Shown here in pieces: positions 21,964 to 58,364 of a stretch of 64,000 nucleotides of DNA. Both the position numbers and the translations under genes were made by a program. This DNA is from Eledone cirrhosa (taxonomy: Eukaryota): positions 77,438,001 through 77,502,000 of the forward strand of contig OZ024747.1 in assembly GCA_964016885.1 (NCBI GenBank), written 5' to 3'. Under the pieces are notes generated by a model that had not been told where the DNA came from, made no database searches, and was given only the letters and a program-made list of their open reading frames with translations. How positions within the stretch are numbered: the first letter of the stretch is position 1; each line of letters opens with the position of its first letter.

Positions 21964-22206
21964 TATAGAAGTAGTAACACAACAGTTAGTTCACCATAAC
22001 AAGGACAATTGTTCCACCTTAGCGATCTTCAGCTCGTACAGGTTATGGTTATACGGACAACCATAACCAGTACGAGCTGAAGATCCGCTAATGTGAAACA
22101 ATTGGTCTCGGTATGGTGAACTAACTGTTGTGTTACTACTTCTACCAAACTCGTCCCGTGGAGTGAGTGTTCTACCACTACTGATATTACCTTCCAGTGT
22201 TCTACC
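21964..22206. mobile_element. Palindromic (TA)n-flanked element with a hammerhead motif in each arm (family C)
   Basis: Arms about 21964-22050 and 22059-22144. Consensus cgag CTGAAGA tccgctaaggt GAAA caattg TC ctcg, each arm with point mutations. Non-palindromic copy at 36490-36666. Confidence 0.78.
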
Positions 22207-22252
22207 TCTCTCTCTATATATATATATATATATATATATATATATATATATA

Positions 22253-22303
22253 AGCTTCTACAGGACTAGAACTGTTTCATTCGTGAGAAATCATCAGGAA
22301 GCT
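22253..22303 (-). ncRNA. Type I hammerhead ribozyme (intact core, family D)
   Basis: Minus strand reads agcttc CTGATGA tttctcacgaat GAAA cag-ttctagtc-ctg TA gaagct. Confidence 0.85.
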
Positions 22304-22789
22304 GACATCCTGGAATAACTTATATATATATATATATATATATATATATATATATATGTGTGTGTGTGTCTGTGTGTGTGTGTGTGTCTGTGTGTGTGTG
22401 TGTGTGTGTGTGTGTGTGTGTGTGTGTTTTATATTTTATATGATATATAGACTCGCATCTACATGTTAAAACATGTAATATGTAATTAAGTATGTAATAT
22501 AACAGAGTGTTGTAGTTTGCTTGAAGCATTATTGAATAGGAAAAACAAATTTAAATAATTTTGAGAACCAAACAATTATCAAGGGAGTATCCCTATGAGA
22601 GACTTAAAGGAACGATCAGACTTGACTTGTTTGGGAGGCATATATATATATATATATATATATATACATGCACATATGTAACTATATATATATATATATA
22701 TATATATATATAATTTATCATATATATTTTATATATATAATATATTATATATATTTTATATATATAATATATCATATATATTTTATATA

Positions 22790-23280
22790 TATAATATCAT
22801 ATATATTTATATATATATATATGTAATTATTATAAATATCATATATATATATATATATATATATTTATATATATGTATTTATTATAAATATCATATATAT
22901 ATATATATTTATTATAAATATCATATATATATATATATATTTATATATATGTATTTATTATAAATATCATATATATATATATATATTTATTATAAATATC
23001 ATATATATATATATTTTTATTATAAATATCATATATATATATATTTTTATTATAAATATCATATATATATATATTTATTATAAATATCATATATATATAT
23101 ATATATTTTTATTATAAATATCATATATATATATATTTTTATTATAAATATCATATATATATATATTTTTATTATAAATATCATATATATATATATATTT
23201 ATTATAAATATCATATATATATATATATTTATTATAAATATCATATATATATATATATATATTATAAATATCATATATAT
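22790..23280. repeat. AT-rich ~30 bp minisatellite
   Basis: Unit (at)n-ttttattataaatatc. Confidence 0.88.
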
Positions 23281-23323
23281 ATATATATATATATATATAT
23301 ATATATATATATATATATATATA

Positions 23324-24594
23324 TGCAAAAGTTTTATTTAAAATTGTTGGGTTACAACAAGTAAATATTTTATAACCGATATAAAGCACTTGACAAGTTT
23401 TGGAGTAGATATACGATATTAAACAAATGGAAACTATATTTATAAAACCATATTTATTTCATTATACATATTACAGGGATACCATATTAAAAATATGGCA
23501 TGCCTTCGTCAGATAAAATACAATATATAAACAGTTTTATAAATAATTTTGTATATATATAGTGAAATTTTTTATAACACAAGGAATTTGTTTATGACAC
23601 AAGAAATTATAGAGTTGATCACGTAAAGTCATGTGTATGTCTATATTATCGACTAGAGCTAGACATAACTTTCTCTTTTTCTTTTTTCAGAAAGTACATA
23701 TACGTATATATACATATATATTTCCGTATTTTTATAAATAGGGTAATTTTTTGAAGGTTTATCTCAGATTTTGGTACATTGACCTCAGAGTTTTAAACTA
23801 AACATATGGTCATTATTGAGCAAAATTATTTTCTCACATTATATATCTATGTCTCATTCATGAATATTTGAATTTACATTCTATTACCCAGTTCATATGA
23901 ATTGATAATTCAAATTGATATGACATGACGTAAAGATGTAACTGTATCCTCTCTCTCTACATATAGCTCTTTCTCCTCTCTCTTTATATATGATGAAGTT
24001 TTATGTATCTGTCGCTTTGATTTTGCCTCTCATATTTTTCTCTTATTTCTCCCCCTATATACTATATTTTCTCTCCCTCTTTCTTTTCCTCCCACCTCTC
24101 TCTCTCTGTTTTCTCTTTATCTCCATTTTTTCTTTCTCTCCGTCTTTTCTCTAACTGTGCTTAACACTATAACTAAGTAATTACTGTACTCTCTCTCTAT
24201 ATAGTACTCCTTCTCTCTTGAATCTCTCTATTTGTATGGTGAATTATTATTATTCATCTGTTGCCTTCGGTTGCGTTTCTTTTTTTCACCTCCTCCTTCT
24301 TTCTCTCTCCCCTCTCTCTCTCTGTTTTTGTTTACCTCCATCTCTTCTTTTTCTCCGTCTTTTTTCTAACTGTGCTTAACACTAAATAATTATAAACACT
24401 TCACTACCAATCCAGCCTCCTAATTTAATGGTCGCTTATATTTATGGTACGTCAAAATTATTTATAAAACTGTTTATATATTGTATTTTATCTGACGAAG
24501 GCATGCCATATTTTTAATATGGTATCCCTGAAATATGTATATTGAAATAAATATGGTTTTATAAATATAGTTTCCATTTGTTTAATATCGTATA
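23324..24594 (+). mobile_element. Non-coding PLE-like element, family H copy 1, with an inverted copy of its 3' end
   Basis: Body 23560-24594 ends in a hammerhead plus (TA)n. Inverted terminus 23324-23551 carries a GAAA>GTAA mutant hammerhead at 23456-23519. Confidence 0.75.
24485..24548 (+). ncRNA. Type I hammerhead ribozyme (family H)
   Basis: attttat CTGACGA aggcatgccatatt-tt-aatatggtatccct GAAA tatgta TA ttgaaat. Confidence 0.8.
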
Positions 24595-24698
24595 TATATA
24601 TATATATATATATATATATATATATATATATATATATATATATATATATATATATATATATATATACATATGTATATATATACATATGTATATATATA

Positions 24699-55308: not shown

Positions 55309-56008
55309 TCAAATTATAATATGAACTAATTATCTTTGCTTTCACCCTTTCAATTTATTCAAACTACATATATTCATATAATCAATCTGTGAACGCAGAA
55401 GTAAATATTTCGAAAAACGTTGCAAACGAAGGAAAACGGAAAGACGATACTTTGGTTCGTGAAGACGTTTCCTGGCAATGAACGGAAAAAAGCGAGGATG
55501 ATACGTCGTTATGTGGAATGATGAGATTTTAGTCTACACATACATACATATATATATATATATATATGGAAAACGAAGAATATATATATAAACGAAGAAT
55601 ATATATATATATATATATATATATATATATATATATATATATATGGAAAACGAAGAATCTGCATAGAGTGCTCACCCGGTATACCGCCTATGGACGCATC
55701 CATTGGACGCATACAAGCAACCTTACTACAAATATATATACAATTATATATATATATATATATATATATATATATATATATATATATATATATATATATA
55801 TATATATATATATATATATATAATTTAGAACTGAGCAATCTCGTGCTTTTTCTCCCCGAAAAAAATATTTTTCCGTTTCTTTTTCTTCTCACTCTCCTCT
55901 CTTTTTCTATTTCTTCTTCTATCTTTCGTTCTATTTTCAAGAAAATTGTGGAAAAAAATTATAATTCGTTTAGAATGCTTTAGACAAAATAAATAAATAT
56001 AAACTTAC

Positions 56009-56218
56009 AGCAATTCCTTTTTGGTCCCTGATGGCTGTCCTAGTCAGTCCACCTTCAATACAAGGGAAGCAGGTATAGAAACAACCATATAGTAGACAAG
56101 ACTTTCCTGTTGCTTCAGCATTTTTTCCTGCTGTGTAACATGGAACTAAAAAAGTAAGGATGCATATTCCGAGATTGTCAAAACAACTGAAAAGAGAATG
56201 GCTAAATTCAGCACTCAT
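56009..56218 (-). CDS. PLAC8/cornifelin-family Cys-rich protein, first coding exon
   Basis: [35 protein letters not shown]...CLLYG...R..IR.QKGI followed by a gtaagt donor. The downstream exon was not located. Confidence 0.85.
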
Positions 56219-56794
56219 GGTTATTGTTTGTTGGGGAGTGTGTTTTTGTTTTTTAACTTTCTTTTTCTTCTTTGGAGTATTTATATATATATATATATAT
56301 ATATATATATATATATATATATATATATATATATATATGTGTGTGTGTGTGTGTGTGTATGTATGTATATATATATTTTTTGTTGTGATTAAAAATATAT
56401 TATATATGCATATATGTGTGTGGTATGTGTATATATAAATATATAGTAAAAATATATATATATATATATATATATATATATATATTGATATATATCGATG
56501 GATTATTGATATAAAATTATATGAGATTTGTGTCTGAAGTGAAAGCGTTAACCACGAGTGATGACTTAAGAAACGCGATACAAGTTTTATTCAGCTTACT
56601 TCTTTATATATTGGACGAGTTGACGATGTAGGAGGTCTTTCCAAAACAACTCCCACATTTTCAGCTATAACTTCCGTTTATTTTTATTTCTCTTCGTCTT
56701 CGCTTCATTCTTTTTTTCATTCATTCATTCTTTTTTTATTTACTTTTTATTATTATATATTCATTATTTTCTAGTTAATTTTTTTAAAAGTGAT

Positions 56795-57375
56795 CTAGAG
56801 TGTTATAATATTATTTAATTACATAAAATAAACACACACACACACACGCACACACATATATATATACATATATATATATATATATATATATATATGTGTG
56901 TGTGTGTGTGTGTGTGTGTGTGTGTGTGTGTGTTTATTTTATGTAATTAAATAATATTATAACAATCTAGATATATATATATATATATATATATATATAT
57001 ATATAGATTGTTATAATATTATTTAATTACATAAAATAAACACACACACACACACACACACACACACGCACACACATATATATATATATATATATATATA
57101 TATATGTGTGTGCGTGTGTGTGTGTGTGTGTGTGTGTGTTTATTTTATGTAATTAAATAATATTATAACAATCTAGATATATATATATATATATATATAT
57201 ATATATGTGTGTGTGTGTGTGTGTGTGTGTGTGTGTGTGTGTGTGTGTGTGTGTGTTTATTTTATGTAATTAAATAATATTATAACAATCTAGATATATA
57301 TATATATATATATATATATATATATATATATATATATGTGTGTGTGTGTGTGTGTGTGTGTATGTGTGTGTGTAT
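56795..57375. repeat. Five alternating-orientation copies of a ~40 bp unique unit linked by (CA)n/(TA)n/(TG)n
   Basis: Unit tctagattgttataatattatttaattacataaaataaac in orientation +,-,+,-,-. Confidence 0.88.
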
Positions 57376-57443
57376 ATATATATTAAAAAAGGAAAAGAAT
57401 GATTTCACTTGTAGTTTTAAACAATTTAATTTAATTTATATAT

Positions 57444-57627
57444 AATTGTTTCTACTTTTGGCACAAGGCCAGCAATTAACCCAGTGTATTACTGGTACTT
57501 TATTTTATCGCCCCCGTAAGGATGAAAGGCAGAGTTAACCTCGGCGGGATTTGAACTCAGAACGTAAAGGGGCATAACTCTATGCTGTAAAGCATGGTCT
57601 CTGACGCTCTACCGATACTGCCAATTC
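57444..57627 (-). mobile_element. SINE S1
   Basis: Full-length reverse complement copy. Confidence 0.82.
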
Positions 57628-58065
57628 ACCATAATATTATACTTTTACAATTTGGTTTGGTAGATCTACCAACTAGTCCAGAATTAGCCGTCGAAACGGC
57701 TTGAGCTCAGCCGTCGGGGTCCTACTCGTTCCTATATATATATATATATATATATGGGGTCCTACTCGTTCCTATATATATATATATATATATATATATA
57801 TATATATATATATATATATATATATATATATATAAAATAAATATGGTTTTATAAATATAGTCTCCATTTATTATTAATATCATTGATATATATATATATA
57901 TATATATATATACATATATATATATATATATATATATATATATATATATATATATATATATATAAATATATATATCAATGATATTAATAATAAATGGAGA
58001 CTATATTTATAAAACCATATATATATATATATATATATATATATATATATATATATATATATATA

Positions 58066-58364
58066 GTATTAGTTATACTATTTATGGTTATGTAAATACA
58101 AAACCTTAAGCAGTTGTAAGTATTTTACACACACCCTAAATAGTGGTAGGCAGTAATGTATTACTACCTTATTACCAGTAAGTTAAGTAGCTCAATGTAA
58201 AAACATCAGATGATTTACAGAGCAGTTATATGAAATATAAGAATCAAAGAACTGTTCAAAACATTATTGTGCTTACAGCTGTTTCCTCCAAACCGAGGTT
58301 TGGAGGAAACAGCTGTAAGCACAATAATGTTTTGAACAGTTCTTTGATTCTTATATTTCATATA
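58066..58364. mobile_element. Family B element with a perfect ~68 bp-arm palindrome centred on hammerhead stem II
   Basis: Arms 58227-58294 and 58297-58364, containing ctccaaacc-ga-ggtttggag GAAA cagctg TA agcac. Homologous to 6095-6270. Confidence 0.82.

What the first reader, a model, noticed from the sequence alone, without database searches (positions are those of the whole stretch)
21964..58364. Asymmetry rule: the short arm ends at an internal TA microhomology that merges into (TA)n
Seen: in family H the short arms end at aatatcgTATA(ta)n, whereas the long arms continue tatctactcc (24590 and 25623 vs 23324 and 27573). Family A short arms end at ttccTAT, family C at cttcTA, family B at tttcATATA, and the 33387 arm at acaATAT. 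Inference: the long arm is the target-primed first strand with the true 3' end. The snap-back strand is joined to the other (TA)n end through 2-5 nt of microhomology.
Basis: partly seen in the sequence, partly recalled or inferred. Interest (0 to 1): 0.72.

Follow-up and report, generated by a model that had tools for sequence, protein, structure and literature searches.

The report
Penelope retrotransposon ends at TA motifs
These lopsided hairpins are insertions of a known kind of jumping gene (Penelope-like retrotransposons), and their shorter end usually stops at one fixed spot whose few TA letters match the TA repeats they insert into, which hints at how these elements make their unexplained inverted copies.

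Summary
Six further sites give 3, 4, 3, 1, 1, 0 (p 0.02-0.03), so it is a tendency, not a rule. The arms carry hammerhead-ribozyme motifs pointing outward, and a Neptune-like PLE ORF (RT plus GIY-YIG-type C-terminus) lies in the window. These are head-to-head Penelope-like insertions with a one-sided 'tail', an architecture already published. Added here: the short end is one fixed site per family (A: 7 of 7), usually 6-8 nt before a shared RCTC motif. The snap-back reading fits only part of the data. In 4 of 7 decidable units the short arm holds template sequence that the long arm lacks, short ends occur without a long arm, and a direct-repeat PLE from another animal ends the same way. Best explanation (0.45): both target ends prime reverse transcription, the second at the UA-rich tail base. 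Endonuclease nicking at that TA and snap-back remain open. I found no report of the TA match; in vitro work on a lizard PLE reports non-homologous initiation.

The parts
193..2459 (-). Penelope-like ORF (RT and C-terminal endonuclease region, frameshift near 440), Neptune-like CxxxxCxxC linker and DKG motif
   Evidence: Pfam RVT_1; 1671 homologs at E<=1e-20 among 8000 candidates, many carrying PF01541; tblastn and HMM; invariant residues
2934..3396 (+). 12-bp palindromic junction followed by an oppositely oriented arm with a degenerate hammerhead (about 3245-3283) that ends in (TC)n(TA)n; likely inverted arm of the ORF copy
   Evidence: the matching 3' copy would lie left of the window, so the link is inferred
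5498..5699 (.). A1 head-to-head unit; long arm left, short end at 5699, overlap 3
20224..20365 (.). G1 small unit; short end overlap 1 (exception; polarity uncertain)
21968..22206 (.). C1 unit; short arm left (overlap 2), 64-nt tail right; central loop belongs to the short arm
22253..22320 (-). D2 solo arm with full type I hammerhead; end overlap 0 (exception)
23325..24590 (.). H1 unit; tail-bearing arm 23325-23551, (TA)5, tail-less arm 23562-24590 (overlap 5) with 891 nt absent from the other arm
25625..27572 (.). H2 unit; tail-less arm 25625-26657 (overlap 5), centre 26658-26940, tail-bearing arm 26941-27572
28959..30580 (.).
30642..30841 (.). A2 unit; overlap 3, tail 81 nt
32602..32730 (.). 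A3 unit; short arm reduced to a few nt but ending at the same family site
32776..33383 (.). E1 unit (the 33387 arm); overlap 4, tail 44 nt; 92-nt centre with the hammerhead core lies on the tail-less arm
36510..36665 (+). C2 solo tail-bearing arm; reference for the natural C sequence
36678..38811 (.). I1 pair (not cited): short arm 36678-36728 (overlap 4) and tail-bearing arm 38683-38811
54097..54369 (.). A4 symmetric long/long unit (exception to asymmetry)
54402..54555 (.). D1 unit; overlap 1 (or 3 of 4 nt ending at the predicted ribozyme cut); turn in stem II, centre on the long arm
57673..57772 (+). A5 and A5b solo short-ended pieces; A5b starts exactly at the predicted hammerhead cut
57832..58016 (.). 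H3 tail-to-tail pair of short-ended pieces around (TA)n; overlap 4 at the site homologous to H1 and H2
58066..58359 (.). B1 unit; overlap 5, tail 166 nt; turn at hammerhead stem II, loop on the long arm
58387..58653 (.). H4: long arm with an 11-nt inverted piece ending at a different TA site (overlap 3)
58672..58737 (-). A6 short-ended arm without a long partner
63370..63391 (+). A7 short-ended fragment

Best explanation
The units are 5'-truncated head-to-head insertions of several Neptune-like Penelope-like element (PLE) families into (TA)n. Shown here: PLE-type architecture, outward polarity, a fixed short end per family, TA overlap at that end, and one-sidedness. Inferred: the RT-endonuclease nicks both strands of (TA)n and both 3'-OH ends prime reverse transcription on element RNA. 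One end starts at the far end of the tail. The other starts at the tail base, a UA-rich spot after a pyrimidine-rich tract and 6-8 nt before a shared RCUC...GAGY motif, where the target end can pair over 2-5 nt. The two antisense cDNAs grow toward each other and are joined at their 3' ends, often through a natural inverted repeat such as ribozyme stem II. On this reading the microhomology marks a priming site, not the repair joint of a snap-back strand. Position is set by the element; the TA match only assists.
For: Outward hammerheads: 5 strict hits against 0.03 in 100 shuffles, all in inverted-repeat families; relaxed cores in 14 of 14 hand-picked regions, several degenerate. PLE ORF in the window. 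Same site reused: A 7 of 7 although the arm offers 3 sites of >=3 nt and 16 of >=2 nt; H 3 of 4 independent ends although it offers 14 sites of >=4 nt. Arms pair by insertion in A1 (5 of 60 differences within, 16-19 between), A4 (2 of 56 within, 6-9 between) and H2 (1 of 138 within, 3-4 between), so these are not copies of one master hairpin. Centre on the short arm in 4 of 7 decidable units. 4 of 7 A short ends lack a long arm. L004, a direct-repeat PLE from another animal, ends at a 4-nt overlap into (TA)22 (chance 0.06). RCTC at +6 to +8 in 7 of 11 sites, chance 0.01-0.08 each. Precedent: the lizard PLE PAc cleaves and extends both strands and starts RT at two sites that bracket the tail (PMC11167929).
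Against: 3 of 11 sites have overlap of 1 nt or less (D1, G, D2). [quoted passage not shown] 3 of 7 decidable centres fit snap-back equally well, and central deletions in palindromes could flip centre ownership (A3 may be one). Two overlapping cDNAs need two RNAs or a tandem RNA, which is not shown. The RCTC motif was defined after seeing the data and folds weakly (z -2.2 to +0.2). No empty sites or target-site duplications could be examined. The far side of L004 is cut by the contig end. H1 arms (2 of 138) are barely closer to each other than to H2 (3-4 of 138).
Confidence: 0.45

Rival explanations
1. Endonuclease self-nicking: the TA at the tail base mimics the (TA)n target, and the element's own GIY-YIG endonuclease, positioned by the tail, cuts the DNA intermediate there. 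The overlap is a recognition motif, not base pairing.
For: Explains the fixed site, a TA dinucleotide in all 8 overlaps of >=2 nt and the ordered asymmetry (12 of 13 units, p=0.0017). PMC8557442 suggests the tail results from endonuclease resolution of the intermediate. PMC11167929 recounts that the D. virilis endonuclease needs the tail to cut its own sequence.
Against: Does not by itself explain extra template on the short arm (4 of 7). PAc genomic ends map to RT start sites.
Confidence: 0.2
2. One reading: the long arm is the only primed strand; it folds back, copies itself and is joined to the other (TA)n end by 2-5 nt of microhomology.
For: B1 and D1 turn exactly in ribozyme stem II with the loop on the long arm, and A2 agrees over 3 nt. 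H4 has an 11-nt inverted piece ending at another TA site. It predicts one-sidedness. PMC3846280 reads junction palindromes as self-priming.
Against: Needs extra central deletions in H1, H2, E1 and C1. Gives no reason for one fixed site among 3-16 equal or near-equal ones. Solo short ends and L004 lack a long arm.
Confidence: 0.2
3. Host repair after insertion: symmetric palindromes lose one tail by deletion between flanking (TA)n and an internal TA, or arise by DNA fold-back at (TA)n.
For: (TA)n-centred tail-to-tail palindromes exist here (3413-3540, 56795-57337, 57832-58016), and a 5' end at 58016 also overlaps TA by 4 nt. A4 is symmetric.
Against: Would scatter ends over many TA sites, yet A uses one site 7 of 7 times. 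Three SINE or other retroelement ends beside (TA)n overlap by only 1, 0 and 1 nt (62422, 33583, 24700).
Confidence: 0.1
4. Chance plus common descent: one ancestral end site happens to be AT-rich and is inherited by related families, with no function for the TA match.
For: Shared motif spacing suggests related families. The uncited set alone is not significant by count (3 of 6, p=0.12).
Against: The overlap sequence differs among families (TA, TAT, ATA, ATAT, ATATA, TATAT) yet stays alternating; sum p 5e-6 to 6e-4 over 11 sites; L004 agrees.
Confidence: 0.05

Closest known systems
Canonical EN+ Penelope-like elements with inverted pLTR and one-sided tail (Adineta Pen2a, PMC3846280; scheme in PMC8557442)
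   Same: Head-to-head inverted 5'-truncated copies, palindromic junctions, tail at one end only, hammerheads in the repeats
   Different: Tails here are 44-166 nt, not 30-40. A TA match at the tail-less end was not described in the passages read. No target-site duplication can be seen inside (TA)n.
Neptune and Naiad PLEs with microsatellite bias (PMC8557442)
   Same: (TA)n targets (stated for Naiads); CX2-5CxxC linker in the window ORF
   Different: Naiads have an N-terminal endonuclease and lack canonical hammerheads. The window ORF has RT first and the arms carry hammerheads, so Neptune-like. No tree was built.
Poseidon PLE PAc of Anolis, in vitro (PMC11167929)
   Same: Two start sites bracketing the tail; both target strands cut and extended; AT-rich targets
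   Different: PAc starts in an AC-rich stem-loop described as not homologous to the target; here the proximal site matches (TA)n by 2-5 nt in 8 of 11 sites.
L1 twin priming (mentioned in 10.1101/2024.12.14.628481; details recalled)
   Same: The second target end primes internally and the two cDNAs are joined in inverted orientation
   Different: From recall, L1 segments do not overlap and the internal site varies. Here both arms copy the same region and the site is fixed.

Membership tests
Penelope-like elements (EN+) | RT plus GIY-YIG endonuclease in one ORF | tested here: met
   Met for the copy at 193-2459(-) only. The endonuclease part is assigned through homologs carrying PF01541; Pfam on the RT-bearing frame found RVT_1 only.
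Penelope-like elements (EN+) | The hairpin families themselves are joined to a PLE ORF | tested here: inconclusive
   No PLE protein match inside families A-I. The link rests on architecture, on the arm at 2934-3396 and on L004.
Penelope-like elements (EN+) | Type I or minimal hammerhead in the terminal repeat | tested here: met
   5 strict descriptor hits against 0.03; relaxed cores in B, C, D, E, F, H. A shows only the 3' half; I was not shown. Rfam listed no hammerhead (top 150 of 371 rows, 32, 33).
Penelope-like elements (EN+) | Head-to-head inverted 5'-truncated copies with an optional one-sided tail | tested here: met
   12 of 13 units one-sided, G1 and D3 left out as unclear
Penelope-like elements (EN+) | Partial tandem (direct pLTR) | tested here: inconclusive
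   None seen in the window (the ORF copy is cut by the window edge); present in the relative L004
Penelope-like elements (EN+) | Target-site duplication | not testable with these tools
   Flanks are (TA)n and no empty allele was available
Neptune clade | CX2-5CxxC linker before a C-terminal endonuclease | tested here: met
   C627, C632 and C635 invariant in 23 aligned sequences
Neptune clade | Phylogenetic placement with named Neptune elements | not tested
   No named reference sequences were fetched
Naiad clade | N-terminal endonuclease, DKA motif, no hammerhead | tested here: not met
   RT first, DKG motif, hammerheads present
MITE or TIR DNA transposon | Symmetric terminal inverted repeats with fixed ends | tested here: not met
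   Ends are asymmetric, inner junctions vary, and solo arms occur

The most novel reading that the evidence does not exclude
(TA)n-targeting Neptune-like PLEs use an ordered two-primer mechanism: the first target end starts at the tail end, and the second base-pairs with a UA motif kept at a fixed distance from a conserved tail hairpin. This would explain PLE inverted repeats, the one-sided tail and part of the microsatellite bias at once. Ribozyme-cleaved RNA may also serve as template, since three pieces begin at the predicted cut.
Probability: 0.3. Interest if true: 0.68.

Novelty: new variant of a known kind. Interest (0 to 1): 0.45.

Why it matters
PMC8557442 names the formation of tandem and inverted PLE structures and their microsatellite bias as open problems. 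A fixed, TA-matched proximal end gives a sequence-level handle. It can be counted genome-wide, compared across families with different target repeats, and changed in the existing in vitro assay. It would also qualify the statement that PLE initiation is not homologous to the target. In practice it tells curators where these repeat consensus sequences end and that the hairpins are neither MITEs nor microRNA genes.

Tried and rejected
Rfam over the whole window returned microRNA-like hits below gathering score on simple repeats and hairpins (top 150 of 371 rows seen); two targeted scans found no hammerhead family. tblastn and an HMM from 120 PLE proteins found no coding trace inside the hairpin families, only the ORF at 193-2459 and a remnant at 52733-53478. 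One search used a wrong coordinate for D (overlap 0) and is superseded. Assembly artefact: rejected, because arms differ by about 1-10% and the same ends recur at separate loci. One master hairpin: rejected for A, weakly for H. A stable tail hairpin was not supported by folding energy; RCTC pairs with GAGY in the minimum-energy fold in 4 of 7 tails. H4 centre orientation was undecidable (scores 10 against 13). Of 43 loci from genome contigs, all screened and 8 viewed, only L004 allowed a 3' overlap measurement. L022 gave a 1-nt overlap at an end of uncertain polarity and was not counted. Rows driven by simple repeats, internal TA runs or 5' ends were left out of the test set. The host species was not determined; named homologs are from bivalves, and 'octopus-like' is my recall only. 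The supplements of PMC11167929 yielded 7,325 characters with no term hits, so its Figs S1B and S2 were not seen and may bear on target homology.
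Full report
Observation. Pairwise alignment of each short arm to its long arm confirms every junction cited. The overlap between the element sequence and the flanking (TA)n is 5 nt in H, 3 in A, 2 in C, 5 in B and 4 at 33387. Against a null that joins a TA run in either phase to every position of each family's own long arm, the sum is 19 against 4.9, p=3e-5 within 60 nt and 5e-3 over the whole arm. Six further 3' sites had a longer homolog: F 3, I 4, H4 3, D1 1, G 1, D2 0 (sum 12 against 5.4, p=0.016-0.032; 3 of 6 with at least 2 nt, p=0.12). 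Over all 11 sites, 8 have at least 2 nt against 2.4 expected (p=4e-4). The effect is real but has exceptions. Three ends of SINEs or another retroelement beside (TA)n overlap by 1, 0 and 1 nt, while one 5' end of an H fragment overlaps by 4.

Asymmetry. Of 13 head-to-head units with both outer ends visible (A1-A4, B1, C1, D1, E1, F1, H1, H2, H4, I1; G1 and D3 left out as unclear), 12 are long/short and one (A4) is long/long. If the two ends chose independently, at most half would be asymmetric (p=0.0017). The two ends are therefore made differently or in order.

What the elements are. The window starts with a Penelope-like ORF (193-2459, minus strand): RVT_1 by Pfam, 1671 homologs among 8000 candidates with the named ones from bivalves or their symbiont assemblies, DKG and a CxxxxCxxC linker. 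Upstream it meets an oppositely oriented arm with a degenerate hammerhead at a 12-bp palindrome (2934-2945). A strict type I hammerhead descriptor gives 5 hits against 0.03 in shuffles, all in inverted-repeat families. Relaxed read-outs show cores in B, C, D, E, F and H, always pointing to the outer (TA)n. Rfam did not list them. No coding trace links families A-I directly to a PLE ORF, so their assignment rests on architecture. Minimal hammerheads in pLTRs, and pairs of them 100-700 bp apart on opposite strands, are described in PMC4209133 (parts 1-2 of 4 read). Head-to-head inverted copies with a tail on one end only are described in PMC3846280 (passages and Discussion) and PMC8557442 (passages and sections 10 and 15). 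The asymmetry itself is thus known.

The short end is a fixed site. All 7 family-A short ends fall at one position, although the arm offers 3 sites with at least 3 alternating nt and 16 with at least 2; two of the seven (57732, 57772) may be one duplicated event. Three of four independent H ends use one homologous site among 14. Arms resemble their own partner more than other copies in A1, A4 and H2, so the events are largely independent. In 7 of 11 sites an RCTC motif starts 6-8 nt after the start of the overlap, followed by a GAGY partner within 10-25 nt in A, B, C, H and I (14 motif hits against a mean of 4.1 and a maximum of 11 in shuffles). The motif was chosen after seeing the data and folds weakly. 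It suggests the element sets the position, and also that the families are related, which weakens the independence assumed above.

Testing snap-back. A copy of the long arm cannot hold template sequence that the long arm lacks. In H1 891 nt, in H2 478 nt, in E1 92 nt with the ribozyme core, and in C1 an 8-nt loop lie on the tail-less arm. In B1, D1 and A2 the centre lies on the long arm. Six units were undecidable. Two cDNAs joined through a natural inverted repeat give both outcomes; snap-back gives only the second unless later deletions are added, which palindromes do invite (established knowledge). Four of seven A short ends have no long partner. Among 43 related loci, L004 is a direct-repeat PLE with the same cysteine linker whose 3' repeat ends with a 4-nt overlap into (TA)22 while its 5' repeat continues (chance 0.06). 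It is a single case and one side is cut by the contig end.

Mechanism. I favour priming from both target ends, the second at the UA-rich tail base (0.45). PMC11167929 (parts 1-2 of 4 read) shows a PLE that cuts and extends both strands and starts at two sites bracketing the tail, but it reports no homology to the target, which counts against pairing. Endonuclease nicking at the internal TA (0.2) fits the fixed site and has literature support. Snap-back with microhomology joining (0.2) fits B1, D1, A2, H4 and the one-sidedness. Host repair (0.1) and chance with descent (0.05) fit least. All steps past the sequence anatomy are inferred.

Novelty. Searches and the passages read, including PMC8969392 (passages), PMC13282606 (part 1 of 3 and passages), PMC9977147 (passages), 10.64898/2026.07.22.740005 (part 1 of 5) and 10.1101/2024.12.14.628481 (passages), gave no report of a target-matching motif at the tail-less PLE end. 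The library lacks most subscription papers, including the 2005-2006 PLE reviews cited in those papers, so absence is not established.

Noticed in passing
57756; about 57832; 3413: Three short pieces begin at the predicted hammerhead cut (57756 with no TA overlap; the other two are confounded by TA). This hints that ribozyme-cleaved RNA is reverse transcribed, whereas PMC11167929 found no reads at the PAc cut.
   Followed up: partly
3413-3540, 56795-57337, 57832-58016: Tail-to-tail palindromes centred on (TA)n, probably DNA fold-back at the self-complementary repeat; a separate class from the head-to-head units.
   Followed up: partly
27879-27972: A solo tail-like piece with the RCTC...GAGT motif between two (TA)n runs, without ribozyme or partner.
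   Followed up: partly
58294-58297, 54428-54432, 63627-63629: Inner junctions often fall in natural inverted repeats of the element (ribozyme stem II in B1 and D1).
   Followed up: partly
23552-23561 and 26658-26671: The tail-less arms of H1 and H2 both run inward to the same internal (TA)n although their inner parts are only about 74% identical.
   Followed up: no
52733-53478 (-): Decayed second PLE RT remnant.
   Followed up: no
45109-50395 (-): Near-intact LINE with endonuclease, RT and zf-RVT domains; decayed relatives at 14689-15164 and 39691-40071.
   Followed up: no
about 7130-7530 (+): Exon of a secretin-family seven-transmembrane receptor (Pfam 7tm_2); the elements to its right may lie in or near this gene.
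   Followed up: no
18626-19248, 24699-25188, 41967-44529: A young repeat family (97-99% identical) ending in (TATG)n-type repeats, with a cluster of 5'-truncated copies.
   Followed up: no
58739-58904 with 63470-63656; 61698-61893 with 63805-64000; 6428-6574: Further hammerhead-bearing families (L, J, K) whose paired ends are not at (TA)n or are cut by the window edge.
   Followed up: partly
L001-L043: PLE ORFs occur in bacterial genome records and look like animal host DNA carried into those assemblies.
   Followed up: no
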